DNA of 64,000 nt from a virus (lineage: Duplodnaviria; Heunggongvirae; Uroviricota; Caudoviricetes), in the IMG/VR virus record IMGVR_UViG_3300047666_001531; one strand, given 5' to 3'. How positions within the stretch are numbered: the first letter of the stretch is position 1; every line of letters begins with the position of its first letter. Both the position numbers and the translations under genes were made by a program. Positions 8,771 through 49,809 of this stretch are shown one piece after another. The notes under the pieces were generated by a model. It saw only the letters and a list, made by a program, of their open reading frames with translations, ran no database searches and was not told the DNA's origin.

Positions 8771-8837
8771 AGCACAAAAACACCGCTTTGAATAGCAATA
8801 AACGGCATATTTTGAAAATAAATCAAAAAAAGTTGTA

Positions 8838-8894
8838 AAAATGATTGACAACGCCTCAAAAATGATTAACAATAGAACTCAATATGATAATAAA
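8838..8894 (+). promoter_or_regulatory. class-A promoter with tandemly duplicated -35 module
   Basis: aaaATGATTGACAAcgcctcaaaaATGATTAACAAtagaactcaataTGaTAATAA. Only the second copy has correct 16 nt spacing. Confidence 0.5.
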
Positions 8895-9036
8895 AACAAA
8901 AAGAAAAATTATTAATGAAAAGTAAATGACGGTTTTAAAACACACACACATGATGAGATTTTTAAATAGAAGCAGGGTGCATATCGTACCTTCAGTGTGA
9001 AATTAAATGAGCGATGAATTCGCTTAAGGAAAACCG

Positions 9037-9681
9037 ATGAAAAACAAACGTACAGAATTTATTGAAGCAATGTTAATTACCAAAGGCAAAGTAACTGCCG
9101 AAGACATTGCAGAAAACTTTGCAATGAAGGCACCATCAGCGTTGGTGGATATCTTTGGATACTTAAAAAAGCACCCTACCTTAGTTGACAAAAGCCGTGG
9201 CGAAAACTTTTTAGTTCGAATCGGCGATAATGTCGGTGAGTTTGAAATGACTAAAAAGCGAGCAAAAGAGTTGCTTGCAGCCTTCGAAGTGGTTCGCAAT
9301 AACCAGGACAGCCATGATCGTTTAACTATCCGTTACGCTTACATTGAAGCTGTTTTAATCAAGTACAACAAGTTAGGTCGTGATGAAATTGCACGAGCAT
9401 TTGAGTTGGCTGGAGCTGCTGCGACCCGAACGATGCAAGGTTACGTAGAGTTGGCACCAGAAAATATTGATATGCATGGTCGTCGATACCATGTAAAAGG
9501 CGAAAAATTTAAGCCTAAGTATTTAAATGTTGAACGTAAAGACGAAGAAAAGTCTGCGCAAAAGCTAATCTCAGCGTTAGAAACTATTGTTGGTAAACAC
9601 ATTTTAGACCCAACACAGTCAAAGATGTGGAGAAAAGAACGTGGTAAAGAAGAGAAGCCTGGACGCACTTACCGTCGATAA
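9037..9681 (+). CDS. hypothetical basic protein, 214 aa
   Basis: aagga SD. Lys/Arg-rich C-terminus. Terminator follows. Confidence 0.5.
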   Translation: MKNKRTEFIEAMLITKGKVTAEDIAENFAMKAPSALVDIFGYLKKHPTLVDKSRGENFLVRIGDNVGEFEMTKKRAKELLAAFEVVRNNQDSHDRLTIRYAYIEAVLIKYNKLGRDEIARAFELAGAAATRTMQGYVELAPENIDMHGRRYHVKGEKFKPKYLNVERKDEEKSAQKLISALETIVGKHILDPTQSKMWRKERGKEEKPGRTYRR

Positions 9682-9702
9682 TCACAACTTAACCCACCCC
9701 AG

Positions 9703-9731
9703 AAGGCAGATATAAAATCTGCCTTTTTGTT
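9703..9731 (+). terminator. rho-independent terminator (aaggcagat..atctgcctt, then T5)
   Basis: Perfect 9-bp stem plus T-run. Confidence 0.6.
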
Positions 9732-9754
9732 TACGCTATACTGTGAGAGAAGTA

Positions 9755-10012
9755 ATGGTCAAATTCAAAGATAATTCAGAAGGGATTTTCTTGGTTATTT
9801 CTAAAAGCAAAAACTCAGAAAGTCCACCAAAACTTGCAAAAGCAATAGAGCAGATATTCTTCTGCCCTGAAGAGGCGTTTAAAGCGTGTGACAGTGTTAA
9901 TAATGAACTTGACCCTAGTGGAAAGGTTAAGTTCTTCAATGTATTTGAAGTGATGGCATCGATTAGGAACCAATGGGATTCATTAGAGGAGTATGAGAAA
10001 GCCTCCTCTTAG
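9755..10012 (+). CDS. hypothetical protein, 85 aa
   Basis: In-frame ATG with gagag SD. The ORF track's 9743 start is a GTG. Confidence 0.4.
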   Translation: MVKFKDNSEGIFLVISKSKNSESPPKLAKAIEQIFFCPEEAFKACDSVNNELDPSGKVKFFNVFEVMASIRNQWDSLEEYEKASS

Positions 10013-10114
10013 ACCCTTGGTTTTTTAACTCTCGTTTGTCGAGAAATAATCCCGAACAAGGCAAGAGCAAGTAATGCGAAGGTTTGTGGCTCAGGTACGG
10101 CAACAGGCGTGCAA

Positions 10115-10729
10115 TTAGATTGGCATTCTGATGTTGTTCCACCAAAAAAACGTGAGATGTGAAAGCCCCTTGTTGTTTGGTGTTACCCAAGAACCAGTAG
10201 TAACTGTCTTAGCTAAGTTAAGGCAGTCAAGTGTATATGTTTCTGGGCTACACGCCGCGTTTGCTTCGTCATTATCATCTACTATCCAAAATAGATTAAA
10301 TCCATTGCCAACCTTGGCAGTCCAAAACCGTATACCTGGGTAGCCTCCGGTGTATGACCAAGAACCCGATTTGTTGTCTTCACTTAGTTTAGTACCATCC
10401 CCGAAACCCCAGTCACTTGAGTCTATGTGTGCTGAGTATTTACTGCTTTCTGTATAATCTGGATTTGATGAGCTGTTAGTATCAAATTTTGCAATAACAT
10501 CGGCCAAGTACACCTTATCGACCCCGAACTCACCGATAGCCACTTTACAAGTATCAAAGCTTTTGTTGCCAGGGTCTTGGAAGTACGCGTTGTTACAATC
10601 ATTGTCGCCGTTAAAGTGATGGGTTATAACCCTTTCAGTTGACGTCATGGTAGCAAAACTGGGTGTCGCAGCAAAAAGAGCTAGTGTTGCTACAATGACT
10701 TTGATGTTTTTTGTGGTATTTGTTTTCAT
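10115..10729 (-). CDS. secreted hypothetical protein, 204 aa
   Basis: Start refined to MKTNTT... with gaggt SD. Signal peptide IVATLALFAATPSFA. Confidence 0.5.
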   Translation of the reverse strand: MKTNTTKNIKVIVATLALFAATPSFATMTSTERVITHHFNGDNDCNNAYFQDPGNKSFDTCKVAIGEFGVDKVYLADVIAKFDTNSSSNPDYTESSKYSAHIDSSDWGFGDGTKLSEDNKSGSWSYTGGYPGIRFWTAKVGNGFNLFWIVDDNDEANAACSPETYTLDCLNLAKTVTTGSWVTPNNKGLSHLTFFWWNNIRMPI

Positions 10730-24129: not shown

Positions 24130-24290
24130 TCACTATAGAAAAAGTTGAATTAAGTAGTTCAGCTTTTTCTATCTGAAATTCACTCAGTATCACTAGAGAA
24201 CATTCCTCTGTCGTGAGGTTTTATGCGGTGTTGCTAATTTGTAGTATAAAATATATACTACATGGGAATAAGGCAACATTTGGGATTGAT

Positions 24291-25031
24291 ATGCGAGGAT
24301 ATAGACCGATAAAACGGCTGATCAGAGCGCAAAAAAAGGGCGAAGGTAAAGCCGAGGTTGCAACAAAGAAACAGTTTAAAAACATTCTTTGGCAATCTTC
24401 TCGTGGTTCGCTTGGCAGGAGAAATGTAGCGATAGTTTGGATGTTGTTCGGTAGTGGTTGCAGGATTAACGAAGTGGCAAAATTCAAGGTTTCTGATCTA
24501 ATCAGAGAAACCAATGAATTAAGAACTACTTTTGTTATCAAGGGTGGTTACACCAAAACAGGCAAGCCAAGAGCCGCTTATATTCTCTATAAGAGCCACC
24601 GCAGAGCGATTGAGGCGTGGATTGATGAACTTATAGAAGAAGGTGTAGGTCAATCTGGTGAAGAGTCTTATAGAGGCTTACGAAAAGATTATCCTTTATT
24701 TGCCATTACTAAAAAAGGTCGATATTGGCGCAAGATGGCATTTAGGGACAAAAAGTACAAAGATGCTGAAGGGAACATTAAAACCACAAAGGTTTGTGGC
24801 TCGTTACAAAATCTGATTAGTGAGCTATTTAAGAACGCTGGTTTACATGGCGGCTCATCACATTCAGGGCGAAGAACGCTTGCTACTTGGCTTGACCAAA
24901 AAGGGATTGAGCTTAAAACGATACAACTTATTTTGGGGCATGAAGATGCCAACATGACACTTGAATATATTGATCCCAATTTTGAACGTATACAAGCTGC
25001 TTTTGATAAAACATTAATCAATATTGATTAG
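24291..25031 (+). CDS. tyrosine recombinase, catalytic domain only, about 247 aa
   Basis: GCRINEV (Arg I), HSGRRTLAT (HxxR) and LGHEDANMTLEYI (His-II plus nucleophile Tyr). No N-terminal core-binding domain. Confidence 0.65.
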   Translation: MRGYRPIKRLIRAQKKGEGKAEVATKKQFKNILWQSSRGSLGRRNVAIVWMLFGSGCRINEVAKFKVSDLIRETNELRTTFVIKGGYTKTGKPRAAYILYKSHRRAIEAWIDELIEEGVGQSGEESYRGLRKDYPLFAITKKGRYWRKMAFRDKKYKDAEGNIKTTKVCGSLQNLISELFKNAGLHGGSSHSGRRTLATWLDQKGIELKTIQLILGHEDANMTLEYIDPNFERIQAAFDKTLINID

Positions 25032-29542: not shown

Positions 29543-29625
29543 GGTTAATCAAATAAAAGCTTCAAGAGCCGGAACAATATTATCTGCGTGATAATATGTG
29601 TTCAAACTTAATCTTAAGGATAATT

Positions 29626-30318
29626 ATGTACATTAATTCAAAAAGCACCGCATTACCTATCATTTTGGCAATGACATCGTTTCAAGCGAAAGCTAACGAT
29701 GCATTAAAACCGGATTGGTTGACTAACCCCCCACCTTATTTACGAGCGGCTTTTGTCGAGAGTGGGGAAAATCTGGACTGGCTAAATTTCAAGTGGTGGA
29801 GGGGCGGAGAGGTTAACATGCCTGAAGCAATCACTGAGATGATTGATATATTGCACTTCTATCTATCTCATGAAATTATTGCACACGACGGTGAAGCAGA
29901 ATCAGCTACTCAGTATATTGCAAACCAATTCCATGATGTGTCGCCTGATGGCGGTTTCAGTTTTGATGGCAATTTTTATTCATATAAATCCTTAGATCTT
30001 CTTACTAAAGTTGAGTTGCTAGGTGGCCTTGCAACGGTACGTCGAACTGAGTGGGGCTTGTTTGCCTCGATCATGATGGATATGGGTGTTTCTTTTGACG
30101 CTCTATATCGTCTATACATTGGTAAGAACGCACTGGTTATGCTTCGCTCTAAGCACGGCTATAAGCAGGGCACTTACCTGAAGATTTGGGATGATGGGGA
30201 AGAGGATAACGCTCATCTTAATCGTTATATGGAGTCGCTTGAGCTTGACGCAAATTTGTTTGATAATATTTTTGGTTTAATGGAAGGTCATTACTTGAGC
30301 AAAGTGAAATTTGTTTAA
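29626..30318 (+). CDS. secreted hypothetical protein, 230 aa
   Basis: Refined start MYINSKSTALPIILAMTSFQAKA (signal peptide). aaggataattATG. Confidence 0.5.
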   Translation: MYINSKSTALPIILAMTSFQAKANDALKPDWLTNPPPYLRAAFVESGENLDWLNFKWWRGGEVNMPEAITEMIDILHFYLSHEIIAHDGEAESATQYIANQFHDVSPDGGFSFDGNFYSYKSLDLLTKVELLGGLATVRRTEWGLFASIMMDMGVSFDALYRLYIGKNALVMLRSKHGYKQGTYLKIWDDGEEDNAHLNRYMESLELDANLFDNIFGLMEGHYLSKVKFV

Positions 30319-31114: not shown

Positions 31115-32896
31115 ATGGAATTAAGTAATATTGTTGGTTATGCGGTCGCCGCAGGTGTCGTTTTAATTGTGCTTTTTATTGTTGGATTTTCTTTATCGAG
31201 AATGTATCGAAAATCGACCAAAGATACAGCGTTGGTTAAGACAGGTTTAGGTGGTGAAAAAGTCATCACAACTGGCGGATTTTTGCTGATACCTGGGTTT
31301 CAAGAATTAATGAAGGTCAACATGCGTACCTTGCGCATCCGTGTTGAGCGTAAAGAAAATGAGGGTCTGATCACGTTGGACTGTATGCGTGTGGACATAG
31401 CAAGTGATTTCTTTGTACGCGTAGCGTCAGATGATGAATCAATTAAAAAGGCCGCACAAGCACTAGGCGATCGTTTATCAGATCCAGATAAAGTAAAAGA
31501 GTTGATGGAGTCAAAGTTCGTTGGTGCCCTTCGTTCAGCAGCCGCATCAATGTCAATGGATGAGTTGCATAAAAACCGCCCTGAATTTGTTTTAGCGGTG
31601 CAAAAAGCAATCGCTGAAGAACTTGCCCAAAATGGTCTTGAGCTTGAGTCAGTTTCACTAACCAGCTTCGACCAAACTAAGCTAGATTTCTTTGATCCTG
31701 ACAATGCATTTGACGCCCAAGGTCGAGCGAAGCTTGCTGAAACTATTGAAGGTCGCAAGAAGCGCACTAACGAAGTTGAACAAGAAAACCGTATTGCCAT
31801 CGAGCAGCGCAATCTTGAAGCTGAAAAAGAGTCACTAGCGATCAAGCAGCAAAAACGTGAAGCTGAAATTTTGCAAGAGCAAGAAATTCAAGTTAAAGAA
31901 GCTGAGCAAAAAGCGTTAATTGCTGGCAAACGTGAAGAGCAAGAACAAAAAGAGCGTCAAGCTGAAATTTCGAAAAACCGAGCTATCGAATCGTCTGAAA
32001 TCGAAAAGAAATTGGCGTTAGATAAAATGAAAATTGAGCAAAATCGTGATTTGGAAGTTGCAGAGCAAGATCGCCAAATCATAATTGCACAAAAATCTGA
32101 GGCGGAAAGTGCCGCTCGTGCAAAAGCCGCAGAAGCGGAAAAAGATCGGGTTGAAAAAGAAGAGGCGGTAATCACTGCCGGAAAAGTAGCCGGCGCAGAA
32201 CGTCAGAAACAGATAGATGTTATCGATGCTCGCCGTAAAGCTGAACGTGAAGCTGTTGCCATTACTGTTGCTGCTGAAGCCTCGAAACAAGCGGCGCAAG
32301 ATGATGCTGAATCTAAGTTAATCGTTGCCAAAGCTGATGCTGATGCAATTCTGATGCGTGCAGACGCTGATGAGAAGAAATATGACGTTGATGCAGCTGG
32401 TCGTCGTAAGTTAAATGAAGCGGATAACGCCCTGAGTGCTGAACAAGTAGAGCTACGTCGTGCATTAGCTACGTTAGAAGCATTGCCACAAGTTATTGCG
32501 CAAGCGGTTGAGCCTCTTAAGAACATCGATGGTATCAAAATCTTGCAAGGTTATAACGGCACCAGCAATGTTGGTTCGGGTAATGATGGTAGTGGTGCTT
32601 CTGGCAACCCTATGTCACAGTTAACGAACGCTGCATTAGCATACAAAGCACAATCACCTGTAGTTACCGCCTTGCTTAGTGAGTTAGGTCTTGGTGGTTC
32701 GCTTGAAGAGCTTGTAGATGGCAAATCAATTGCAAGTTTGATGTCTAACGCGACCAATAGTGTTAAGTCAATCGCTGACAGCACACCAAAGGCTGATAAT
32801 GGTTCAGCTGATGTGAGTGACAATCCTGATTTTACGTCGGTTGAAAATTTCACAACAGCAGAAGCTGACGTTTCAGAACGAAACGCCGACAGCTAA
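31115..32896 (+). CDS. yqiK: flotillin-family SPFH/band-7 protein (YqiK-like), 593 aa
   Basis: N-terminal TM, SPFH domain (LVKTGLGGEKVITTGG...), then a long coiled-coil of EA/EQ/KR repeats typical of flotillins. Confidence 0.7.
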   Translation: MELSNIVGYAVAAGVVLIVLFIVGFSLSRMYRKSTKDTALVKTGLGGEKVITTGGFLLIPGFQELMKVNMRTLRIRVERKENEGLITLDCMRVDIASDFFVRVASDDESIKKAAQALGDRLSDPDKVKELMESKFVGALRSAAASMSMDELHKNRPEFVLAVQKAIAEELAQNGLELESVSLTSFDQTKLDFFDPDNAFDAQGRAKLAETIEGRKKRTNEVEQENRIAIEQRNLEAEKESLAIKQQKREAEILQEQEIQVKEAEQKALIAGKREEQEQKERQAEISKNRAIESSEIEKKLALDKMKIEQNRDLEVAEQDRQIIIAQKSEAESAARAKAAEAEKDRVEKEEAVITAGKVAGAERQKQIDVIDARRKAEREAVAITVAAEASKQAAQDDAESKLIVAKADADAILMRADADEKKYDVDAAGRRKLNEADNALSAEQVELRRALATLEALPQVIAQAVEPLKNIDGIKILQGYNGTSNVGSGNDGSGASGNPMSQLTNAALAYKAQSPVVTALLSELGLGGSLEELVDGKSIASLMSNATNSVKSIADSTPKADNGSADVSDNPDFTSVENFTTAEADVSERNADS

Positions 32897-34398: not shown

Positions 34399-35772
34399 AT
34401 GTCTCAAGTTATAGAAGTTAAATTGTGGGGTGTCACCGTTGGCCGCATGGGTTATGTGGATGACACTGGTGTTGCGTTATTTGAATACGACGAAGCATTT
34501 TTAGGCTCAGATGTATGTATTTCGCCAATCCACATGCCAACAAGCCAAGAACGTTTTCAATTCCCTGACATAAGTGAAAAAACCTTCCACGGTCTACCAG
34601 GTGTGTTTGCAGATTCTTTGCCTGATACATTTGGTAACCAGCTGATTGACTTGTACATGGCTGAAAAGGGCATTGCATCGAATGAAATCACCGCCCTTGA
34701 TCGACTGCTTTATATCGGCAATAGAGGCATGGGTGCTTTGGAGTACTCACCTTCAACAAAATTTGGTGAAGAAACGCCAACAGTAGCGTTAGATATCCAG
34801 ATGCTTTCAGAGTTAGCTTCTATGGTGGCATCTAAATCGAAAGAAAAAAGCGATAAAATTCTGCATTCAAAAGATGCGGCTACCGCGATCAAGTTACTAC
34901 GTATTGGTAGTAGTGCCGGCGGTGCACGTTCAAAAGCGTTGGTAAGTACGTCACCAAATGGTGAATTTCTTGATGGTACTTACGACCACGGTACGGATCA
35001 CAAGTACTGGTTGATGAAATTCGACAGTGAGGGTAATCGTGATCGTGATGGTTTCGATCCTAAAGGTATGACGAAGGTTGAGTATATCTACGGTGAGATT
35101 GCAAAAAACTTGGGGCTTGATGTGCCTAATTTTGATTATCACGAAGAAAACGGTGATTTTCATTTCATGATTGAACGTTTTGACCGGTTGAAAGGTGAAA
35201 ATAAGATGGACAAGGTGCATTATGCGTCTTGGTCTGGCCTTGAGCATGCTCACAGGGACACTACGGGTGCATATTCTTATGAACAGCTAATCTTGCTAGC
35301 AAGAAAGTTAAAATTGCCTCAGACGTCGATTGAGGAGCTTTATCGTCGAGCTGTTTTCAATGTAATTGGTCGCAATCAAGATGATCACACTAAGAACTTT
35401 GGCTTTTTAATGAATAAGTCTGGTGAGTGGAGTTTATCAAAAGCGTTTGACTTAACGTATTCTTATGATCCTCAAGGTCGTTGGACACGTGTTCATCAGA
35501 TAAAACTTAATGGCAAGCAAGATGATTTCACTTATGATGATTTGGCGAAGCTTGGGCGTCACTGTAACCTGTCTTTGCCTGCAATTAGAGAGATAGTTGC
35601 AAGAACGGTAGATGGCTTTAATGCTTTTGATGATCTGGCCAAAAAATTGGAAGTGACACCAGAGTTAAGAACGACAGTTATTCAAAATATGAGAACGAGC
35701 AGTATTGTTGTGCCTCAGCCTCAAAAACCTAGCAAAACTGTGGATGCACCCAGCTTTAAAAAAGGGCGTTGA
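34399..35772 (+). CDS. hipA: HipA-family serine/threonine kinase toxin, 457 aa
   Basis: N-terminal LWGVTVG...ALFEY module and catalytic block QDDHTKNFGFLM...AFDLTYS. Confidence 0.8.
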   Translation: MSQVIEVKLWGVTVGRMGYVDDTGVALFEYDEAFLGSDVCISPIHMPTSQERFQFPDISEKTFHGLPGVFADSLPDTFGNQLIDLYMAEKGIASNEITALDRLLYIGNRGMGALEYSPSTKFGEETPTVALDIQMLSELASMVASKSKEKSDKILHSKDAATAIKLLRIGSSAGGARSKALVSTSPNGEFLDGTYDHGTDHKYWLMKFDSEGNRDRDGFDPKGMTKVEYIYGEIAKNLGLDVPNFDYHEENGDFHFMIERFDRLKGENKMDKVHYASWSGLEHAHRDTTGAYSYEQLILLARKLKLPQTSIEELYRRAVFNVIGRNQDDHTKNFGFLMNKSGEWSLSKAFDLTYSYDPQGRWTRVHQIKLNGKQDDFTYDDLAKLGRHCNLSLPAIREIVARTVDGFNAFDDLAKKLEVTPELRTTVIQNMRTSSIVVPQPQKPSKTVDAPSFKKGR

Positions 35773-41941: not shown

Positions 41942-42406
41942 TTAGAAGTTAAAACGCGCACCAAGAGTAACGACATCTGTTGAGTCGAAATTTTCATACA
42001 TCACTTCAAGCTCCCAATCATTACTTAACTGGAAACTTGAGCCAACGCCCATACCAAATTCCCACTCGTTATGTCCATCAGATTTGATGTTAGCGTAAGC
42101 GGGTTGCACGAAAAATGATGCAACGTCGTTTGCTTGATAATCAACGCGAGTTGCGACAACCATATAACGGTCAATTTCAAATCCGCGATAATTTTTAACG
42201 CCAGTGCCGACACGAAGTTCTGGCATAACGCTCCAATTGCTGTGGTTATCGTCAAAGGTGTAGCCGGCATTGACTGTTACTGCGGCAAGTGACGGGTCTC
42301 CGTTTGATAAATGAGAGTAGCTAGTGCCCAGGTTCCAATCTGCCATTGCGCTTGTTGAAGCTAATGCAAGTGCAGTTACGGCAAGAGTACGTTTTAAAAA
42401 TTTCAT
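41942..42406 (-). CDS. small outer-membrane beta-barrel protein (OmpW/OmpX-like), 154 aa
   Basis: Signal peptide MKFLKRTLAVTALALASTSAMA. Alternating amphipathic strands. C-terminal ...GARFNF with terminal Phe. Confidence 0.6.
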   Translation of the reverse strand: MKFLKRTLAVTALALASTSAMADWNLGTSYSHLSNGDPSLAAVTVNAGYTFDDNHSNWSVMPELRVGTGVKNYRGFEIDRYMVVATRVDYQANDVASFFVQPAYANIKSDGHNEWEFGMGVGSSFQLSNDWELEVMYENFDSTDVVTLGARFNF

Positions 42407-42546
42407 GATATTCCCTTTTTTATAAAAGTGGCTTAATGCCTAGAAGATACTTGAGTTCCCTCAAGTTTTTTGAATGGTTAATATAGCATATAAAGCGGTA
42501 ACTTCAACAAAGCAAAGGTTTGTTTTGACAACTTTTGTTATTGAGG

Positions 42547-42762
42547 TTAAGCCGCTATTTTTAGTTCTGTAACATTGCTTATGCGTTCGACATTGATACA
42601 GCCTTTGTAGGCACTTGTGATCTTAACGGATTCGCCAGCAATGATATCGCTGTCAGTGTTTAAAAACCAAATACGATCAGCAATGACAATAGAATTGCCA
42701 AGCCCTGAATGCTTAGGCTTTGTGGTAATATCTTCTTTTATTTTAATGACCATACCGGCCAT
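42547..42762 (-). CDS. hypothetical protein, 71 aa
   Basis: ORF only. Confidence 0.25.
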   Translation of the reverse strand: MAGMVIKIKEDITTKPKHSGLGNSIVIADRIWFLNTDSDIIAGESVKITSAYKGCINVERISNVTELKIAA

Positions 42763-42932
42763 AGATTTGAAAAGCTCTTTTCTTCAATTTCTTTGTTTTT
42801 TGTTTTATATGCCGTTAATCCAATCAACGTAAATAATGCTACTAGTCCAATGTAAATCATATATAACTCCAAATTAATGTAGAGTTATTTTAGTCGAATT
42901 GCCTTTAAATTCAACTAAATCCACCTTATAGA

Positions 42933-42969
42933 TAAAAGATTGACAAAATTATCAAATTGAAATATTATG
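42933..42969 (+). promoter_or_regulatory. class-A promoter (TTGACA, 17 nt spacer, TATTAT)
   Basis: aaaaGATTGACAAAattatcaaattgaaaTATTAT. Confidence 0.55.
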
Positions 42970-42997
42970 AATGTATGAGTAAACAAGGCTTAAAAAG

Positions 42998-43732
42998 ATG
43001 AAACAAGAAGCAGATATAGTCGCAGCAATGATTGCAGCAAGTTATGAAGTTGTTAAAGAAAAATACCGTAGTTACGTGGATGAAAACTTCACAAGCTATG
43101 TTCACTCGCTTGACTTTGTTGCTGGCAGAGGACGTAGAACATCGCACAAAAAGCGCGGTACTAAGCATATAATCACCTATGGCGTAAAGGCAGTTGTCAG
43201 TAAGATGCAGAGTAAGCAAATTGCTTCCAGATGGTTGTCTGGCCGAGAGATTGTTGATATGGGCTTCTTTGGTGGTGAGTTGACGTTAAAGAACAGCTTG
43301 ATCCACACTATCATTCATGAGTATGCACATTACTTGCAAGTTCTGGAGGGTGGAAGAACCAAAAACAGCATTCATAATTGTTACTTTTATTCTGTCCTTC
43401 GTCGCCTTTACGATGATGGTTTGGCTGTAGAGTTATCGGCATATTTTGATAATGATCCGGTGTTAAAGGAATTGTGCTTTAAAGATGTTGTTAATAGTGA
43501 TATCGCCCCTAATGACAATACAGATATTTATAGTCCGCAGACTGTGAATAAGGGCGATGTAGTGATATTCGATGCTACGTTTAAAATGTTAGGTGTTGTT
43601 GAAGTCGAAGGGGCAGTTAAAAGGGCAAACACTAAAACTGTTTCGGTCAGTATAAAAAACCCTTTAGATAAATTTATGGCGCTTGATTATAGAGTGCCGT
43701 ATCACCTGATTAAAAACAAAAGTAAGAGATAA
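42998..43732 (+). CDS. SprT-like zinc metallopeptidase domain protein, 244 aa
   Basis: LIHTIIHEYAHYLQ HExxH block after a basic region, the SprT/WLM pattern. Confidence 0.5.
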   Translation: MKQEADIVAAMIAASYEVVKEKYRSYVDENFTSYVHSLDFVAGRGRRTSHKKRGTKHIITYGVKAVVSKMQSKQIASRWLSGREIVDMGFFGGELTLKNSLIHTIIHEYAHYLQVLEGGRTKNSIHNCYFYSVLRRLYDDGLAVELSAYFDNDPVLKELCFKDVVNSDIAPNDNTDIYSPQTVNKGDVVIFDATFKMLGVVEVEGAVKRANTKTVSVSIKNPLDKFMALDYRVPYHLIKNKSKR

Positions 43733-43765
43733 ATGATTGACAATAAGTATCATTATGATAATATG
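43730..43765 (+). promoter_or_regulatory. class-A promoter
   Basis: agaTAAATGATTGACAAtaagtatcattaTGaTAATAT. The upstream gene's TAA stop lies at its 5' edge. Confidence 0.6.
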
Positions 43766-43812
43766 TGTATGTATTATAAATTAACTCATAAACTACACAC
43801 ACAGGACTCATT

Positions 43813-45597
43813 ATGCCAAATACTAAAAACGCCGTTAAAGTTACTCAGGACGACTTTAAGGTAGATAAATCTATCATCCGACACTTGATATTCTCCCAAG
43901 CCGGAACACTCTCTAAAGCCTTACTCGAATTAATTATGAACTCGTTGGATGCCCATTGTGAAAGCATTAGCGTTGATTTTTCTGATGATATGCGTCGTGT
44001 TGTTGTAAAAGATAACGGCACAGGCTTTGAAAGTGTCGAATCTATCCAAAATTTGTTTGGTGTGTTTGGCTTTGATCACACTACTCAAGCCGAAATTGCT
44101 CGTGGCAGAAGCTACGGAAGATTTGGTCTTGGTCGAGCGCAATGTTTAGCATTTGGTTCGACTGTGTGGACGACTAATCAGTTTACGATGGAAGTCGATT
44201 TAAAAGGCAACAAGACTAATGATCTGCCTTACATCATCAAAGAACACGGCAAGAGCCTACACAAAGGTTGTATGATTGAGATCAATTTATACGATCACAT
44301 GTCTATTCACGATAAGCGTAGTTTAGGTTCAGAATTAAAACGCATGGCTAAATATGTTAAAGAAGATTTACGTATTGATGGCACTCGTGTAAATGAATCG
44401 ATTGACGAAGTAAAGTGGAGCGCCACTAACGATGATTTTCTGTTTTTGAAAGCGCAAAGTGAACGTGGCCTCGCGATTTACAACAAAGGCGTATTAGTCT
44501 GCACCTATGGCCATAGTAAATTTGGCGTATCAGGTGATTTAGTCTCAAGAGATAAAAACTTTGCAGTTAATATGGCGCGAAATGATGTGTTGGTTGCAGA
44601 ATGTGAGCTTTGGAAATCAATTCCTGCGTTTCTTAAACCTTTTTCTGAAAAAAAGGAAAGAAAAACACTTACCAATCAAGATCGCATTTACCTTATATCT
44701 CAAGTAATGCAAGGTGATTTAAGTTATGAAGCCATAAAAACAAAACGAATTTTCCAAAATGCAGATGGTAAATATTTTACATTAAAGCAGGTCTTTAACC
44801 ATGCAAATGGTAATATTACTATTGCTCCTGATCGCATGGTTCAATATAAAGGGATGGGTTTGCATCGCCGAAAAATTGCTTTTTGTTTCAGTTACGATTT
44901 TGCTGACAGTCATGGCTTTAAAAATATCGAAGAAATGTTTGACGAATTAAAAAAAGTGATTTCGATAACGGACTACAGTTTCGATTTTGCAAGATTCAAG
45001 GCAATAGATTTCGAAGAAGCCTCAAAAATGGTGGTCGATACGCATGATATTATTCCAGACTCCGAGTTGGGTGCGCTTGATAAAACTCGACTTAAAGCAA
45101 CTAAGTCAATGTATGAACTATTAAAGAAAAATTTTATTTCGGTTGAGTGTAACGCTGGAAGATTCGATATGAGCGCTTTTAAGGGCTATATGGAACGTGA
45201 GAGCGCTTTAAATGACAAGTATCATCGAAATATTTGTTTAGGTCGTTCAGAAGTTGCTAAAGCATGGACAGATGGTAGCCGTTATATTGCGATTGATATT
45301 GATGTTGTTAGAAAGTCGTTTGAATCAGGTTTGAATGGGTTGCTTAACCTTGTATCAATATTGGTGCATGAAATGTGTCATGATTCGCCTACAACGGGAA
45401 GTCATGACCATGATGCTGATTTTTATGAACGATATCATGATGTGATGATAGATGGTGATTTAAATGTGTTTTCTGTCGCCACACGTGGTTTAGAGTCTTA
45501 CATGGTAGAAAACAAAAAGAACAATCGTCCTCTTTCAAGTAGAGAAGTGCGAAATTTCTTTCCTGTGTTTGAGAAGATGATTAAGCAAGCCGTTTAA
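43813..45597 (+). CDS. GHKL-family ATPase fused to a C-terminal HExxH zincin-like region, 594 aa
   Basis: ELIMNSLDA (N-box), VKDNGTGF (G1) and GRFGLGRAQ (G2) define a Bergerat ATP-binding fold. C-terminus carries ILVHEMCHD plus HDHDADF. Confidence 0.55.
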   Translation: MPNTKNAVKVTQDDFKVDKSIIRHLIFSQAGTLSKALLELIMNSLDAHCESISVDFSDDMRRVVVKDNGTGFESVESIQNLFGVFGFDHTTQAEIARGRSYGRFGLGRAQCLAFGSTVWTTNQFTMEVDLKGNKTNDLPYIIKEHGKSLHKGCMIEINLYDHMSIHDKRSLGSELKRMAKYVKEDLRIDGTRVNESIDEVKWSATNDDFLFLKAQSERGLAIYNKGVLVCTYGHSKFGVSGDLVSRDKNFAVNMARNDVLVAECELWKSIPAFLKPFSEKKERKTLTNQDRIYLISQVMQGDLSYEAIKTKRIFQNADGKYFTLKQVFNHANGNITIAPDRMVQYKGMGLHRRKIAFCFSYDFADSHGFKNIEEMFDELKKVISITDYSFDFARFKAIDFEEASKMVVDTHDIIPDSELGALDKTRLKATKSMYELLKKNFISVECNAGRFDMSAFKGYMERESALNDKYHRNICLGRSEVAKAWTDGSRYIAIDIDVVRKSFESGLNGLLNLVSILVHEMCHDSPTTGSHDHDADFYERYHDVMIDGDLNVFSVATRGLESYMVENKKNNRPLSSREVRNFFPVFEKMIKQAV

Positions 45598-45614
45598 GTT
45601 AAAGTGGTAATCAA

Positions 45615-45639
45615 AGGTCAGTTTGTCTGGCCTTTTTTA
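45615..45639 (+). terminator. terminator hairpin plus T6 after 45597
   Basis: ggtcag..ctggcc stem then tttttt. Confidence 0.5.
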
Positions 45640-45643
45640 TGCA

Positions 45644-45670
45644 AAAAAAAAGCCGGTGAAAACACCGGCG
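45644..45670 (-). terminator. terminator for minus-strand 45764..46261 (gccggtg-aaaa-caccggc, then T9 on minus)
   Basis: Perfect 7-bp stem with an A9 run on the plus strand, equal to T9 on the minus strand. Confidence 0.6.
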
Positions 45671-45763
45671 AAAAGTAATCAGTAAACACACGTTACATTC
45701 TCATGTAGCACTAATATAATATCTCAAAATCATAATTATCCAACACCACCAGATAAAAATGTG

Positions 45764-46261
45764 TTATTTGCTAAATTTCATATGGGTGTTGTGAAAGGCA
45801 CCGTGATAACCGCGTTCAAAATGGATTGCGGCCATTGGAAAACCTAAGTCAAAACCTATATCTCGTCCAGAGCCTAATATCAGCTGTTCTCTAACGCCGG
45901 CAATATCTTTTTCAAGCTTCATTCGAGGGATGGAGCTGTATAATTTTGATAACGGGATCAGTAGCACTGTGTTCTGCGCAACAGAAAACGCCTTTTCCAT
46001 GACTTTGGTCAAATCTGACCAAGTAGGATTAGTAACAATCCAATCAACCTGTTCATTGAATTCGTAAAAATCACGTCCATCTTCAATTTCGCACCACAGT
46101 GTGCCTTTTGGCAATTCATTGTAAAACACACCAGAGCCTCGAAACGGTTCAAGTATCTTACCGGTAGGCTGAAAGTGCTTTATGATGGCTCGCGCTATTT
46201 CAGGCTTGGTATAGTGTACATCAGAGTAGTCAGTCATTGCAGAGGCAGTGGTCATAACCAT
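45764..46261 (-). CDS. putative SAM-dependent N6-adenine DNA methyltransferase-like protein, about 165 aa
   Basis: LEPFRGSGVF resembles the SAM-binding motif I. IVTNPTW resembles catalytic motif IV (D/N/S)PP(Y/F/W). Unusually short. Confidence 0.4.
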   Translation of the reverse strand: MVMTTASAMTDYSDVHYTKPEIARAIIKHFQPTGKILEPFRGSGVFYNELPKGTLWCEIEDGRDFYEFNEQVDWIVTNPTWSDLTKVMEKAFSVAQNTVLLIPLSKLYSSIPRMKLEKDIAGVREQLILGSGRDIGFDLGFPMAAIHFERGYHGAFHNTHMKFSK

Positions 46262-46262
46262 G

Positions 46263-46640
46263 TTATGTTGCCCCTGCAATACAAAGTGAATCGGTATTTA
46301 CCTGAGCGATATACTCAAGTTCCATTGTGGTGCCAGTATTGATTGTTTTTTGCTTTTGCAATTCACTAAACAGAATTTGACCGTTACAAAAAAAAGCTTG
46401 TAAGCCTGGTAGATGCATCAGTTCATTGGAATACCACTCAAACGGTGGCTGTCCACTCAAGTAGCGAGCAATTTGCTTAGGATCGTTACGCATTTGCTTT
46501 ATACGCAACATTTCATGTGCGTTGTCAAAAATTTCTATTGCTAAACGGTAAATTCCGGTGGCAGTGACATAGGCAAACTGCATATGTTCGTTTTGAAACT
46601 TGCACGCGAACAGTGCGCCAGAGGTTGTTTTTACACTCAT
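46263..46640 (-). CDS. hypothetical protein, 125 aa
   Basis: Overlaps the start of the downstream MTase-like gene, so operonic. Confidence 0.4.
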   Translation of the reverse strand: MSVKTTSGALFACKFQNEHMQFAYVTATGIYRLAIEIFDNAHEMLRIKQMRNDPKQIARYLSGQPPFEWYSNELMHLPGLQAFFCNGQILFSELQKQKTINTGTTMELEYIAQVNTDSLCIAGAT

Positions 46641-46719
46641 GGGTATAATCCTTTATATTTAAATTCCACAAGTTTATTTTAGCATGGTAGAGTGAGAATC
46701 CATCTAGCGAAAACCTAAA

Positions 46720-46756
46720 TAAAAGATTGACAAATTATCATAATGATGTCAATATG
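46720..46756 (+). promoter_or_regulatory. class-A promoter (-35 conserved, -10 uncertain)
   Basis: aaaaGATTGACAAAttatcataatgatgtcaatat. Contains an internal inverted repeat ATTGACA..TGTCAAT. Confidence 0.4.
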
Positions 46757-46816
46757 CATTTAATGATATGCAATATTAATGCATTAACAACTTTATATAA
46801 AATTAGGAAGTCGAAT

Positions 46817-48283
46817 ATGTTGAAATTAACAACCATTCTTGCAGTTACTTTATTAAGCGTTTCAGCTCTTGCTGAAAACGTGAGTATGTTTAACATTCAC
46901 TATAACGACTCATCCGGCACAGGAGTTCGCAGCACTGAACCCTTTACAACAAGTGAAGGTCGTGTGACCACTGTTGGAGAATACAGAAAAGAACTTATTG
47001 AACACACTACGCGTGCTGTTTCATTGCAGTTCAATCATGTTGTCCCTCATAAGCTTGTTCTTGATTTTAAAGCACCTAGCGGTTATGCAGCTTTGACTTC
47101 GGGACCCTCTTTTACTGAGTTTAGTGAATACGACCGTAAAGATAAATTCGGGTTTCTTGAAGTAGGGCGTTCTTATCCAAGCACGCTTGTTAGTGCGCTT
47201 AAATCGATTAAAAACTCTCACGATGAAGATGCGGTTGTTTCGTTTGCTGATAATGTCGATGATTTGCGTACCAATCGAGAACACGTATATCCTCCTATAG
47301 TTTATTCTGCCTACCACGAAATGATGCATGTACTAGGTTTTGTTGGTACAGACTGTTTGGGTAAGTGCATACCTGAGCCGACCAGTAAAAAAGGTCACAT
47401 TTCACCTTATCTTTATTATAATGATAATGGCACTGTAAAGGCTTTTGAGTCGCTTTCAATGACCAAGAAAACTCATGCTTACATGTCAACTGACAAACTG
47501 TGGTTTGGTGGTAGTGAGACGTCAAGAAACGCTGCTATGAAAGAGCTTTCAGCAGGTCATACTAATGGCTTTGTTTATATGTTTGCCACTCCTAGCGTTG
47601 AAACGGGTAGTGTAGATCCACAAGCGGGCAATCATTTTTCGTTTGAAGTTCAGCCGGCGCAGTTGATGCGTTCTTCACGTGCTAGCACTGTTGATATCGG
47701 CATGGCGGCTTATTTACTTTGTGATGCGGGTTGGTGTCAAAGAGGTGGTAAAGTTATTGAGCAGTCGGTAAAGGCTGTATTGAATGAAAATGCGAGCAGC
47801 GACACAGAATCGGTTATTGATATTACGGTAAGCGAAAACCTGAATGTTGGTGTAAAAGAGTTTGAGTTAACAATTATCCCTGATGCGGGGATGAATGTGA
47901 TAGAATTTCAAGATCCAGATGGTGTTTGCTCGGAGAGAAATGGTGGTTATTACTGTTTAGGTGGTCTGAACCCTTACGAGAAAATGAATGCAAGACTTAT
48001 TGTAACGCCATCAAATGAATATACTTTAAAGGGTGATTTGCGTTCTACCGGTTTTGATGTTGATCGTAACGGTTTTAATAACATTTTGGATGTTACATTG
48101 TCTAAAGCGGCAGCCCCACTACCTGTACAAACAGCACCTGTAACCAGTGCTCCTGCGAAAACTGAAAATGGTGGCGGCGGTAGCGGCGGTGGTTCGATGT
48201 CGTTTGTAATGTTGCCTTTATTGCTAGTTGCCTTAATAAGACGTAAGCACGTTGTTGGTAAAGCAGCTGCGGGATCTAAATAA
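46817..48283 (+). CDS. secreted zinc metalloprotease with GlyGly-CTERM sorting signal, 488 aa
   Basis: Signal peptide MLKLTTILAVTLLSVSALA. AYHEMMHVLGF HExxH motif. C-terminus GGGGSGGGSMSFVMLPLLLVALIRRK matches Gly-Gly, TM helix, basic tail of rhombosortase substrates. Confidence 0.6.
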   Translation: MLKLTTILAVTLLSVSALAENVSMFNIHYNDSSGTGVRSTEPFTTSEGRVTTVGEYRKELIEHTTRAVSLQFNHVVPHKLVLDFKAPSGYAALTSGPSFTEFSEYDRKDKFGFLEVGRSYPSTLVSALKSIKNSHDEDAVVSFADNVDDLRTNREHVYPPIVYSAYHEMMHVLGFVGTDCLGKCIPEPTSKKGHISPYLYYNDNGTVKAFESLSMTKKTHAYMSTDKLWFGGSETSRNAAMKELSAGHTNGFVYMFATPSVETGSVDPQAGNHFSFEVQPAQLMRSSRASTVDIGMAAYLLCDAGWCQRGGKVIEQSVKAVLNENASSDTESVIDITVSENLNVGVKEFELTIIPDAGMNVIEFQDPDGVCSERNGGYYCLGGLNPYEKMNARLIVTPSNEYTLKGDLRSTGFDVDRNGFNNILDVTLSKAAAPLPVQTAPVTSAPAKTENGGGGSGGGSMSFVMLPLLLVALIRRKHVVGKAAAGSK

Positions 48284-48936: not shown

Positions 48937-49809
48937 ATGTTTAATCGAGAGTGGATAATAAAGTATGCAGAGAAAGACTTTAATCCTGAAATTGTAAGTA
49001 TCAACAATATAGCGATAGATAATTTAATATTGCCAAAACTAAATATGGTAATAGATGATTTCACTTATGCTGCTCCTGATTGGGATATTTACAGTATTTC
49101 TAAACTTTGGTTCGTTTTCTGTTCGCAAGCCTTTCAATTTAAACATCTAGAAAATGATGGTGCCAAATCTAAAACGCATTATATGGGGATGACAGGATCA
49201 AACGCTGTCCTTTGCATGATTAAGGATTGCTGGCCGTTAGAAGATAAAATAAACAGAGAAAAATTGGACTTTATTTTAAAAACACTCCCTCTCTACGAGC
49301 AACGCTCATGTATATTGAGCGAGATTTTTAAAGACACTCTAAAGTTAGATGGATTTGTAAGTGAAATTATTGAGTCAGCCCGAAGCGGAATCGTAACTTG
49401 TCAATTAGCCAATAAACTAGCAAGTGAGTTTCCTTTATCTTTTGAAGATCCTTACTTAAAAAAAGCTCAATTAGCTATATCAACGATTGCTGGTTGTGTT
49501 CAGCATAAAGAAGGAGTATCCATAAAAGATGATTTAACGGCATTTGCAGATTACGAAGTACCACGAGTATTGCGTTCGCTAGGTGTTATTGAATATTCAG
49601 AAAACTTGATTTGTAAGTTGCGAAACGGTACACCTATTTTGAAAGACTCTACCGAAGAGTTAGCCATACGTGCAGCGACCATATTGGCTGTTGAGAAAAT
49701 GTCTAACAGTTCTGGTTACAGTGCCTCTCAGCTAGATAATTACTTATGGCAATATCAGAGAAACATTGGTCAAACTGAAGTTCATGTAACTGACACGACC
49801 TTCTATTAA
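48937..49809 (+). CDS. hypothetical protein, 290 aa
   Basis: gagcaaggaataaataagcATG start. Confidence 0.5.
   Translation: MFNREWIIKYAEKDFNPEIVSINNIAIDNLILPKLNMVIDDFTYAAPDWDIYSISKLWFVFCSQAFQFKHLENDGAKSKTHYMGMTGSNAVLCMIKDCWPLEDKINREKLDFILKTLPLYEQRSCILSEIFKDTLKLDGFVSEIIESARSGIVTCQLANKLASEFPLSFEDPYLKKAQLAISTIAGCVQHKEGVSIKDDLTAFADYEVPRVLRSLGVIEYSENLICKLRNGTPILKDSTEELAIRAATILAVEKMSNSSGYSASQLDNYLWQYQRNIGQTEVHVTDTTFY

What the first reader, a model, noticed from the sequence alone, without database searches (positions are those of the whole stretch)
42998..46640. SprT-like zincin plus GHKL-ATPase/zincin fusion, convergent with a mini N6-MTase-like pair: candidate nucleic-acid-targeting or defence module
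42998..43732 carries an SprT/WLM-type HEYAH motif. The next gene, 43813..45597, has its own class-A promoter and combines a bona fide Bergerat ATPase fold (N-box ELIMNSLDA, G1 DNGTGF, G2 GRFGLG, as in MutL/Hsp90/MORC) with a C-terminal HEMCH...HDHD region. I do not recognise this fusion from any named system. Converging on it are 46263..46640 and a 165-aa protein with SAM motif I (LEPFRGSGVF) and an NPTW motif IV. That is the size of a minimal DNA adenine methylase. ATPase, protease/nuclease-like effector and a methylase nearby is the grammar of restriction-like or abortive-infection systems.
Basis: partly seen in the sequence, partly recalled or inferred. Interest (0 to 1): 0.6.

Follow-up and report, generated by a model that had tools for sequence, protein, structure and literature searches.

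The report
Plasmid ATPase fused to a zinc protease
The central gene encodes a MutL/MORC-like ATP-driven clamp fused to a Wss1/SprT-type zinc protease, an uncharacterised stand-alone protein found on about 190 large plasmids, and its three neighbours are independent genes rather than parts of one restriction-like defence module.

Summary
All four ORFs and every quoted motif are present at the stated coordinates.

**The central gene (43813-45597)**
- The ATPase motifs and HExxH...H-x3-F are kept in all 25 aligned homologues and 16 further plasmid and metagenome homologues.
- The family occurs on 191 sequenced plasmids, annotated only as "ATP-binding protein". It has no conserved neighbour there. 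It sits among plasmid DNA-processing and establishment genes (topoisomerase III, ssb, ParB-N, LPD7, orphan methylases).

**The neighbours**
- The upstream ORF is a diverged SprT-like zincin with a Tudor/KOW-like barrel, from its own family of about 230 clusters.
- The convergent pair is an operon: a 125-aa unknown protein plus a mini amino-methyltransferase-like protein. The latter occurs as a lone gene in 386 phage genomes.
- The four genes are syntenic only within one lineage of giant (170-580 kb) marine elements, together with unrelated flanking genes.

**Verdict**
The domain calls are right. The multi-gene restriction or abortive-infection module is not supported. The most likely function is an ATP-gated protease acting on DNA-bound proteins for the plasmid. 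A single-gene defence role remains a live rival.

The parts
42939..42968 (+). Promoter-like site (ATTGACAA-N-TATTAT, 11 of 12 consensus matches) upstream of the SprT-like ORF
   Evidence: It is one of 9 copies of ATTGACAA-N14-18-TANNAT in the window (0.23 expected).
42998..43732 (+). SprT/WLM-like zincin (HEYAH at residues 107-111; third His at H126 in H-N-x2-F-Y) with a C-terminal Tudor/KOW/SH3-like beta-barrel (about residues 186-242). An independent gene, not a conserved partner of the ATPase.
43736..43764 (+). Promoter-like site with a TG-extended -10 (ATTGACAA...TGATAATAT) upstream of the ATPase-protease gene
43813..45597 (+). The core gene: a GHKL ATPase + S5-type transducer + helical middle region + Wss1/SprT-type zincin in one 594-aa protein
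43813..44652 (+). GHKL ATPase (residues about 1-130: E39/N43/D46, D67-G69-G71, G102-G107-R108) plus S5-like transducer (about 131-280, with the invariant N253-x-A-R-N-D258 motif)
44653..45222 (+). Middle region, mostly helical (residues about 281-470). It is poorly conserved in sequence and no family was assigned.
   Evidence: Secondary structure. No Pfam, NCBIfam or PDB sequence hit.
45223..45597 (+). Small zincin domain (residues about 471-594): a three-stranded sheet with the AWTDG motif, the active-site helix HEMCH (519-523; nt 45367-45381), then H531-x-H533-x3-F537 and H542
45616..45638 (+). Terminator-like hairpin (GGTCAG-loop-CTGGCC, then T6) after the ATPase-protease gene
   Evidence: Read by eye in the sequence. 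The scan tool did not list it because of one wobble pair.
45652..45669 (-). Terminator-like hairpin (GCCGGTG-TTTT-CACCGGC, then T9) that ends the convergent minus-strand operon
45764..46261 (-). Mini amino-methyltransferase-like protein (165 aa). Motif X-like YTKPEIA, motif I LEPFRGSGVF, motif IV NPTW. No target-recognition domain.
   Evidence: phrog_799 E 2.4e-24. 386 phage records by tblastn. Family alignment. Profile against PDB DpnA E 4.6e-4. Members hit N6_Mtase, Eco57I and EcoRI_methylase only weakly.
46263..46640 (-). 125-aa protein of unknown function. Its stop codon lies 1 nt before the methyltransferase-like start codon, so the two are co-transcribed.
   Evidence: Junction sequence. 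Conserved at 37-57% identity in the sister elements. No Pfam, PHROG, PADLOC, NCBIfam or phage tblastn hit.

Best explanation
The object of interest is one self-contained gene, 43813-45597. It encodes a MutL/MORC/Hsp90-type GHKL+S5 ATPase joined by a helical region to a Wss1/SprT-type zinc metalloprotease. The family is carried as a stand-alone gene by large plasmids and conjugative elements, mostly of Proteobacteria.

**Shown**
- The architecture.
- Conservation of the ATP-binding and zinc-site residues.
- The distribution on plasmids.
- The absence of a conserved partner gene.

**Inferred**
- As in other GHKL+S5 engines, ATP binding closes a dimeric clamp around DNA or a DNA-bound client.
- This positions or licenses the protease. 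Like Wss1, Spartan and the ArdC C-terminal domain, the protease would cut proteins sitting on or covalently stuck to DNA.
- Candidate substrates are restriction or nucleoid proteins, relaxase adducts and topoisomerase adducts.
- The effect would help the plasmid establish or maintain itself.

**The neighbours are independent accessory genes**
- A SprT-like zincin with a Tudor/KOW-like barrel.
- An operon of a 125-aa unknown protein plus an orphan mini amino-methyltransferase-like protein of a kind common in phages.

For: **Active-site conservation.** E39, N43, D46, D67, G69, G71, G107, R108, the N-x-A-R-N-D motif, H519, E520, H523 and H533 are conserved. HExxH...H-x3-F is kept in 16 of 16 further homologues.

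**Distribution.** 191 plasmids carry a homologue, 99 of them near full length: Acinetobacter 89, Pseudomonas 50, Xanthomonas 22. By mobility, 91 are conjugative and 41 mobilizable.

**Context.**
- Topoisomerase III lies directly upstream in pBVIE04 and one gene away in pFPPDNB1-1, which also carries ssb, thermonuclease and LPD7.
- T4 coupling protein, LPD7, an N6_N4 methylase and ParB_N lie nearby in L014.
- ParB-N, PAPS reductase and DinG flank it in Xanthomonas plasmids.
- RepB is adjacent in a P. toruni plasmid.
- Orphan methylases and ssb are documented leading-region content (PMC11541004).
- ArdC is a precedent for a plasmid protein that joins DNA binding to a zincin and overcomes restriction (PMC7213743).

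**No conserved partner.**

**Own promoter and terminator.**
Against: - There are no experimental data for any member.
- No DNA-binding domain was identified by sequence. DNA dependence is inferred only from relatives.
- pTM is 0.48, so the relative domain arrangement is uncertain.
- The contexts are heterogeneous, and 59 of the 191 plasmids are typed non-mobilizable.
- No transfer genes were found among the window ORFs scanned against Pfam. About 28 of the 66 ORFs of at least 120 aa were scanned.
- Position relative to oriT was not measured.
- A GHKL + clamp + C-terminal effector protein, VcSduA, is a proven single-gene anti-phage system (PMC12137116). This favours the defence rival.
Confidence: 0.45

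Rival explanations
1. It is a single-gene defence protein. The GHKL clamp senses invading DNA or a phage protein, and the zincin is the effector that cuts a phage or host protein, possibly causing abortive infection. This would be a protease-armed counterpart of the paraMORC3 / Shedu type I-D protein VcSduA.
For: - VcSduA has the same overall plan (N-terminal GHKL, clamp-like middle domain, C-terminal effector). It acts alone and needs both ATPase and effector residues (PMC12137116, read).
- paraMORC families with varied C-terminal effectors, including one with an unexplained HxH motif, were linked to restriction systems (PMC2292703).
- The gene stands alone with its own promoter.
- The N-terminus weakly resembles the GHKL restriction enzyme family BbrUII/HgiDII and MzaB.
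- Defence genes are common on plasmids.
Against: - No PADLOC model matches.
- Neighbours in other replicons are DNA-processing, partition and transfer genes rather than defence islands.
- Apart from a partial match (45% of the query) in two contig records of one Acinetobacter phage, hits came only from plasmids, and from metagenome contigs some of which carry plasmid-type genes. Two pattern scans of 185,579 species genomes found none, but these scans are insensitive.
Confidence: 0.27
2. The SprT-like zincin, the ATPase-zincin fusion, the 125-aa protein and the mini methylase together form one restriction-like or abortive-infection module, with methylation marking self.
For: - The four genes are adjacent and are retained in that order in four sister lineages at 54-69% ATPase identity.
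- In the one lineage that lacks the SprT-like gene, the ATPase gene carries a frameshift inside the N-box helix, seen in three assemblies. This could be read as co-decay.
- The two zincin domains are related (hhalign E 8.5e-6).
Against: - Synteny extends equally to unrelated flanking genes, so it reflects a shared backbone.
- Each unit has its own promoter-like site, and the convergent units have separate terminators.
- None of the partners accompanies the ATPase in 16 distant homologues (and the context calls).
- The SprT-like family and the methylase-like family occur alone in other contexts.
- The methylase-like protein has no target-recognition domain and a Pro-to-Thr change in motif IV.
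Confidence: 0.06
3. It is an Hsp90-like chaperone-protease that works on protein clients independently of DNA, for example in quality control or processing of plasmid-encoded or secreted proteins.
For: - Minigluzincin zymogens and HtpX score as well as Spartan for the C-terminal domain.
- No DNA-binding domain was detected.
Against: - MORC3, MutL, SMCHD1 and topoisomerase ATPase modules score almost as well and with far lower rmsd (3.5-4.3 A against 11.3 A).
- The zincin's closest sequence families are WLM and SprT-like. From knowledge of those families, not tested here, they are DNA-dependent proteases.
- The recurring neighbours are DNA enzymes.
Confidence: 0.1

Closest known systems
MutL / MORC / paraMORC GHKL+S5 ATPases (Iyer et al. 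2008, PMC2292703)
   Different: The effector here is a zincin protease, not an endonuclease, TIR or PD-(D/E)xK domain. There is no linked helicase, methylase or nuclease. The protein scores far below the MutL equivalog cut-offs (24 bits against 180). paraMORC5 is described only as having an unknown C-terminal domain with an HxH motif. That fits this family, but I could not check identity because no sequences are available.
VcSduA / Shedu type I-D (paraMORC3) single-gene anti-phage protein (PMC12137116)
   Same: A single polypeptide with a GHKL ATPase, a clamp-like middle region and a C-terminal catalytic effector. A stand-alone gene.
   Different: The effector is DUF4263, a PD-(D/E)xK nuclease, which is absent here. 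No PADLOC hit. A defence role is shown for VcSduA and untested here.
Wss1 / Spartan / SprT (WLM and SprT-like zincins), the DNA-protein crosslink proteases
   Different: The window protein itself does not reach any Pfam threshold for this domain. It is fused to a GHKL ATPase, whereas the eukaryotic proteases work with a separate ATPase, p97/Cdc48 (recalled from the literature, not checked here). It lacks the ubiquitin, SUMO and PCNA-binding modules.
ArdC (plasmid R388 anti-restriction protein; PMC7213743)
   Same: A plasmid-borne protein that joins a DNA-directed module to a C-terminal zincin. Encoded among establishment genes.
Phage T4 rIIA family
   Same: An N-terminal GHKL module with a variable C-terminal part, encoded by mobile elements. 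Many rIIA proteins are among the best BFVD hits (E 1e-9 to 1e-11).
   Different: TM-scores are only about 0.33, so only the N-terminal module matches. No zincin has been reported for rIIA.
Orphan phage and plasmid DNA amino-methyltransferases (phrog_799; DpnA-type N6-adenine methylases)
   Same: The 165-aa protein has motif I (FxGxG) and a motif IV of NPP[FYW] type, in gamma-class order. Hits: phrog_799 E 2e-24 and DpnA profile E 4.6e-4.
   Different: It is only about 160 aa, with no target-recognition domain. The window lineage has NPTW instead of NPPW. It fails all Pfam thresholds. Activity and substrate are unknown.

Membership tests
GHKL (Bergerat-fold) ATPase superfamily | Motif I (E-x3-N-x2-D), motif II (D-x-G-x-G) and motif III (G-x2-G-x-G) in order | tested here: met
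   E39/N43/D46, D67/G69/G71 and G102/G105/G107 are invariant or nearly invariant in 25 homologues. HATPase_c_3 scores 48.6 bits against a cut-off of 25.
GHKL (Bergerat-fold) ATPase superfamily | Bergerat alpha/beta sandwich fold | tested here: met
MutL/MORC-type GHKL+S5 module | An S5-fold transducer directly after the GHKL domain, carrying a basic residue that reaches the gamma-phosphate | tested here: inconclusive
   236-246 residues align to the two-domain MutL and MORC3 ATPase modules, so the second domain is present. The invariant R256 in N-x-A-R-N-D is a candidate for the sensor residue. Its equivalence to MutL K307 is my inference and was not tested.
MutL (mismatch repair) proper | Scores above the MutL equivalog model; C-terminal dimerisation/endonuclease domain | tested here: not met
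   TIGR00585 scores 24.1 bits against a cut-off of 180, and only residues 36-74 match. The C-terminus is a zincin.
paraMORC5 (Iyer 2008) | GHKL+S5 with a family-specific C-terminal domain containing a conserved HxH motif | tested here: inconclusive
   H531-x-H533 is invariant in alignment A1. The first His is lost in the pBVIE04 and Clostridium homologues. The paper gives no sequences in the held text or supplement, so identity cannot be checked.
WLM / SprT-like zincins | HExxH plus a downstream third His on a small zincin fold | tested here: met
WLM / SprT-like zincins | Match to the Pfam WLM or SprT-like model above the gathering score | tested here: not met
   The window 594-aa protein has no hit for its C-terminus. 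Only 3 of 25 homologues hit WLM (best E 2.5e-5) and 3 of 25 hit SprT-like. The 244-aa ORF scores 15.7 bits against a cut-off of 25.6, although 29 of 37 of its relatives hit the model.
WLM / SprT-like zincins | DNA-dependent proteolysis of DNA-bound proteins | not testable with these tools
   Needs biochemistry.
Shedu (incl. type I-D / VcSduA) | DUF4263 PD-(D/E)xK nuclease domain | tested here: not met
   No Pfam or PADLOC hit. The C-terminal fold is a zincin.
ArdC anti-restriction proteins | N-terminal ArdC-type ssDNA-binding domain plus C-terminal zincin | tested here: not met
   The N-terminus is GHKL. There is no ArdC-type Pfam hit.
Restriction-modification-like or abortive-infection multi-gene module | Conserved co-occurrence of the ATPase, effector and methylase genes across unrelated replicons | tested here: not met
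   Co-occurrence is confined to one syntenic lineage. It is absent in 16 distant homologue loci.
Known defence systems (Paris, RADAR, MORC-RM and others in PADLOC 2.0) | Match to a PADLOC protein model | tested here: not met
   No hit at E up to 0.1 for the ATPase-zincin or the SprT-like ORF. The methylase-like protein gives only noise-level hits.
N6-adenine / N4-cytosine DNA amino-methyltransferases | Motif I FxGxG and motif IV (D/N/S)PP(Y/F/W) | tested here: inconclusive
   Motif I is present. Motif IV is NPTW in the window lineage and NPP[FYW] in 13 of 17 relatives.
N6-adenine / N4-cytosine DNA amino-methyltransferases | A target-recognition domain, or a partner that supplies one | tested here: not met
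   The protein is 165 aa, which covers only the catalytic core. The 125-aa operon partner has no detectable similarity to anything and is absent next to homologues elsewhere.
N6-adenine / N4-cytosine DNA amino-methyltransferases | Methyl transfer to DNA | not testable with these tools
   Needs methylome or enzyme data.

The most novel reading that the evidence does not exclude
The family is an ATP-gated DNA-clamp protease of mobile elements. It would be a one-chain bacterial counterpart of the eukaryotic pairing of an ATPase (p97/Cdc48) with a Wss1/Spartan protease. It would strip covalently or tightly DNA-bound proteins from plasmid DNA during or after transfer: relaxase or topoisomerase III adducts, restriction complexes, or nucleoid silencers. 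That would define a new class of plasmid establishment or anti-defence factor.
Probability: 0.25. Interest if true: 0.75.

Novelty: new variant of a known kind. Interest (0 to 1): 0.45.

Why it matters
- GHKL+S5 ATPases fused to nucleases are established actors in mismatch repair, chromatin compaction and phage defence.
- SprT/Wss1 proteases are the dedicated DNA-protein crosslink proteases of eukaryotes, and their bacterial relatives are barely studied.
- A conserved fusion of the two, carried by about 190 sequenced plasmids of Acinetobacter, Pseudomonas, Xanthomonas and marine bacteria and annotated only as "ATP-binding protein", is a concrete and testable candidate. It could be a new plasmid establishment or anti-defence activity, or a new protease-armed single-gene defence.
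- Either outcome would add a mechanism to plasmid-host conflict. It would also give a simple bacterial model for ATP-controlled proteolysis on DNA.
- It also shows that the attractive "ATPase + effector + methylase" gene grammar here comes from backbone synteny, not from a functional unit.

Tried and rejected
- **DNA similarity.** Megablast of 42000-47000 against the phage and plasmid collections found nothing.
- **tRNAs.** The window has none.
- **Sequenced genomes.** The two counted scans then found no relative, so the host could not be named from a sequenced genome. These pattern-based scans are insensitive and do not prove absence from chromosomes. An IMG/VR scan also found nothing.
- **PDB by sequence.** The ATPase gave only noise, plus PMS2 at E 0.34. 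The SprT-like family profile gave nothing.
- **PADLOC.** No usable hit.
- **AFDB Foldseek.** The library was not available, so I could not see how database proteins with the same full-length fold are annotated.
- **Search for a conserved small partner.** All-against-all BLASTP of the ORFs flanking the ATPase gene in distant homologues found none.
- **Apparent frameshift of the SprT-like gene in L007/L018.** I considered it evidence of dispensability and rejected it. It is a 1-nt difference in a poly-A run against an otherwise identical intact copy in L008, so it is probably an assembly error.
- **Literature.** Searches for GHKL with SprT, WLM, metallopeptidase or plasmid found no description of this fusion. 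The library lacks most subscription journals, so this does not prove novelty.

Full report

Yes. The four ORFs are at the stated coordinates: 42998-43732 (+, 244 aa), 43813-45597 (+, 594 aa), 45764-46261 (-, 165 aa) and 46263-46640 (-, 125 aa). Metagenome gene callers made the same calls on identical contigs. Every quoted motif can be read in the translations.

- The 125-aa stop codon lies 1 nt before the 165-aa start codon, so those two form an operon.
- Promoter-like sites lie just upstream of each plus-strand gene, at 42939-42968 and 43736-43764.
- These sites belong to a recurrent motif, ATTGACAA-N14-18-TANNAT, found 9 times in the window against 0.23 expected.
- Two back-to-back terminator-like hairpins separate the convergent units.

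**2. The central gene**

*Sequence and structure*
- Pfam places residues 33-122 in HATPase_c_3 (E 1.1e-12, above the cut-off).
- A search of 5.8 billion proteins returned 45 clusters, most 550-700 aa long and full-length matches.
- In an alignment of 25 of them (24-69% identity), several residues are invariant: N43, D46, G69, G71, G107, R108, the N253-x-A-R-N-D258 motif, T486, D487, H519, E520, H523, H531, H533 and F537. E39, D67 and H542 are nearly invariant.
- An AlphaFold2 model built on this alignment has mean pLDDT 83.9 and pTM 0.48, so the individual domains are reliable but their mutual arrangement is not.
- Three of the 25 homologues reach Pfam WLM (best E 2.5e-5), and three reach SprT-like weakly.
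The fusion is real.
- The region between residues about 281 and 470 is helical, poorly conserved and unassigned.

*Where the family lives*
- tblastn finds it in 191 of 72,556 plasmid records, near full length in 99. The main hosts are Acinetobacter (89), Pseudomonas (50) and Xanthomonas (22), with some Photobacterium, Variovorax, Burkholderia and others. By mobility typing, 91 are conjugative, 41 mobilizable and 59 non-mobilizable. The annotation is always 'ATP-binding protein' or hypothetical.
- Only two phage records match, and only over the N-terminal half.
- I checked 16 plasmid and metagenome homologues directly. All keep HExxH followed by H-x3-F, and all but two match the strict N-box pattern used. 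Two homologues lack the first His of HxH, which points to H533 as the third zinc ligand.

**3. Are the four genes a module?**

No.

- I searched eleven window proteins against every fetched locus. The order small ORF - SprT-like - ATPase - (methylase-like, 125 aa) - secreted protein recurs only in sister elements from marine metagenomes. These are contigs of 167-565 kb with 54-69% ATPase identity. Unrelated flanking genes (a beta-barrel OMP, HipA) recur with it. This is backbone synteny.
- In the distant homologues none of the partners is present. The immediately flanking small ORFs share no similarity with each other.
- The contexts do share a theme of plasmid DNA processing and establishment:
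  - topoisomerase III directly upstream in pBVIE04, and one gene away in pFPPDNB1-1, which also carries ssb, thermonuclease, LPD7, StbB and VirB5;
  - T4 coupling protein, LPD7, an N6_N4 methylase and a large ParB_N protein;
  - ParB-N, PAPS reductase and DinG in Xanthomonas plasmids;
  - RepB and dnaN;
  - ERCC4 and SPFH proteins in pTK9001, families that also occur in this window;
  - LPD1, DUF262, a 5'-3' exonuclease and a nucleoid-associated protein.
- One observation mildly favours linkage. In the sister lineage that has lost the SprT-like gene, the ATPase gene carries a frameshift inside the N-box helix, seen in three independent assemblies. With a single lineage this is anecdotal.

**4. 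The neighbours**

*The 244-aa ORF*
- The word-indexed search found only three close clusters. An exhaustive profile search found 227 representative clusters, 192 of them at E up to 1e-10.
- In 37 aligned members G45, T48, G62, E84, H107, E108, H111, H126, F130 and Y131 are invariant.
- 29 of 37 members hit Pfam SprT-like and 8 hit WLM.
- Its zincin core aligns to the ATPase protein's C-terminal domain (hhalign E 8.5e-6 and 2.9e-5; H126 aligns with H533). The two adjacent genes therefore carry related zincins of the HExxH...H-[ND]-x2-F-Y type.
- The family occurs without a GHKL neighbour on giant Vibrio, Photobacterium and Pseudomonas plasmids, and in a chromosomal-looking context.

*The 165-aa protein*
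- It matches phrog_799 'DNA methyltransferase' (E 2.4e-24) and 386 phage genomes. In the one phage genome inspected, Vibrio phage F88, it is a lone gene of about 175 aa.
- Its relatives also stand alone next to Dot/Icm or RecA/SMC genes.
- The family has motif I and NPP[FYW]. The window lineage has NPTW.
- A family profile reaches DpnA-type N6-adenine methylases at E 4.6e-4. No member passes a Pfam threshold convincingly.
- It has no target-recognition domain.

*The 125-aa protein*
- It has no detectable relatives outside the sister elements.

**5. Mechanism**

*Shown.* This is a conserved single polypeptide with an intact ATP site, an S5-type second domain and an intact zincin site. It is plasmid-borne and stands alone.

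*Inferred.*
- GHKL+S5 modules are ATP-driven dimerising clamps that move or hold DNA or clients (PMC2292703).
- WLM/SprT zincins cut DNA-bound proteins. This is established knowledge for Wss1 and Spartan and was not tested here.
- My best reading is an ATP-gated protease that acts on proteins bound or crosslinked to plasmid DNA, serving establishment, anti-defence or maintenance. ArdC is the nearest functional precedent (PMC7213743), and leading-region biology is the setting (PMC11541004).
- The adjacency to topoisomerase III in two plasmids makes topoisomerase or relaxase adducts attractive substrates, but that is speculation.

*Main rival.* A single-gene defence on the VcSduA / Shedu type I-D plan, in which the same GHKL-clamp-effector layout gives phage resistance (PMC12137116). 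An Hsp90-like chaperone-protease is a minor alternative.

**6. Comparison and novelty**

- The protein is a member of the GHKL superfamily and of the GHKL+S5 group.
- It is not MutL, not Shedu (no DUF4263) and not ArdC (no ArdC-N domain). It is in no PADLOC family.
- It could be the 'paraMORC5' family, noted in 2008 for an unexplained C-terminal HxH motif. That cannot be verified.
- I found no paper describing a GHKL-WLM/SprT fusion, within a library that omits much of the literature.
- I rate it a new variant of a known kind: a GHKL-effector fusion with a protease as the effector.
- Interest is moderate. The architecture and its plasmid distribution are worth an experiment, but the multi-gene system that made the finding look exotic is not there.

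**7. The replicon**

- The exact ATPase protein occurs on at least 24 metagenome contigs, the longest 583 kb.
- The window has no tRNAs and is about 38% GC with a strong plus-strand gene bias.
- It carries HipA, flotillin/SPFH, ERCC4-HhH, a tyrosine recombinase, dUTPase, DsbD, a queuosine-salvage protein and a GlyGly-CTERM protein.
- The GlyGly-CTERM signal is one I associate, from memory, with rhombosortase-bearing marine Gammaproteobacteria.
- Together this suggests a giant plasmid-like element of a marine gammaproteobacterium. The host was not identified.

Noticed in passing
window 147, 3965, 17320(-), 17447, 22162, 28082(-), 40923, 42939, 43736: A recurrent strong promoter-like motif, ATTGACAA-N14-18-TANNAT, often with a TG-extended -10 (TGATAATAT or TGATAAAAT). 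It occurs 9 times against 0.23 expected from shuffles, so many genes of this element seem to be separately and strongly promoted.
   Followed up: partly
L009 5876-6004 / 6001-7659; L010; L019 8001-8240: In one sister lineage (three assemblies, including TARA) the ATPase-zincin gene is frameshifted inside the N-box helix (...KALLELV | MNALDAKG...), and the SprT-like gene is missing between the small upstream ORF and the ATPase gene. This may be co-decay of the two genes, or just local erosion.
   Followed up: partly
window 46727-48283 (likely true start ATG at 46817): A secreted protein with a C-terminal GlyGly-CTERM (rhombosortase) sorting signal (TIGR03501 E 7e-4, above its cut-off). This hints at a Vibrio/Shewanella-type host. 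The listed TTG start is probably too early. The signal peptide begins at residue 31, and the orthologues are 487-496 aa.
   Followed up: partly
window 46726-46753: An inverted repeat, ATTGACA-N14-TGTCAAT, lies in the short divergent region between the 125-aa operon and the secreted-protein gene. It overlaps a copy of the ATTGACAA promoter box and could be an operator.
   Followed up: no
window 42547-42762 (-): A 71-aa ORF divergent from the SprT-like gene is conserved at 30-46% identity in all sister elements, including the one that lost the SprT-like gene. It is therefore a real small gene of unknown function.
   Followed up: no
window 6137-7318, 31115-32896, 34399-35772, 24213-25031, 29596-30318, 48937-49809, 55992-57818: Other recognisable genes: an ERCC4-HhH nuclease, a flotillin/SPFH protein, a HipA kinase, a tyrosine recombinase, a dimeric dUTPase, a queuosine-salvage protein and DsbD. 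ERCC4 and SPFH genes also lie near the ATPase-zincin homologue on Thioalkalivibrio plasmid pTK9001.
   Followed up: partly
window 45764-46261 (-) and relatives (alignment A4): A family of about 160-aa minimal amino-methyltransferase-like proteins without a recognition domain is very widespread in phages: 386 genomes, of which 220 are Escherichia phages, plus Klebsiella, Campylobacter, Vibrio and cyanophages. It is annotated inconsistently as methyltransferase or hypothetical. Its substrate appears to be unknown.
   Followed up: partly
L026 (V. parahaemolyticus pVP-19-VB00998, 882 kb) 7986-8951; also V. vulnificus and P. damselae giant plasmids: Relatives of the SprT-like ORF lie on 600-940 kb Vibrionaceae 'plasmids' full of hypothetical genes. 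These may be the nearest sequenced analogues of the element that carries the window.
   Followed up: no
L022 (pBVIE04) 3526-8439; L003 (pFPPDNB1-1) 5255-10292: In two unrelated plasmids, longer (about 770-810 aa) ATPase-zincin homologues lie directly after, or one gene after, a plasmid topoisomerase III gene on the same strand. This may be a functional pairing worth a systematic count.
   Followed up: partly
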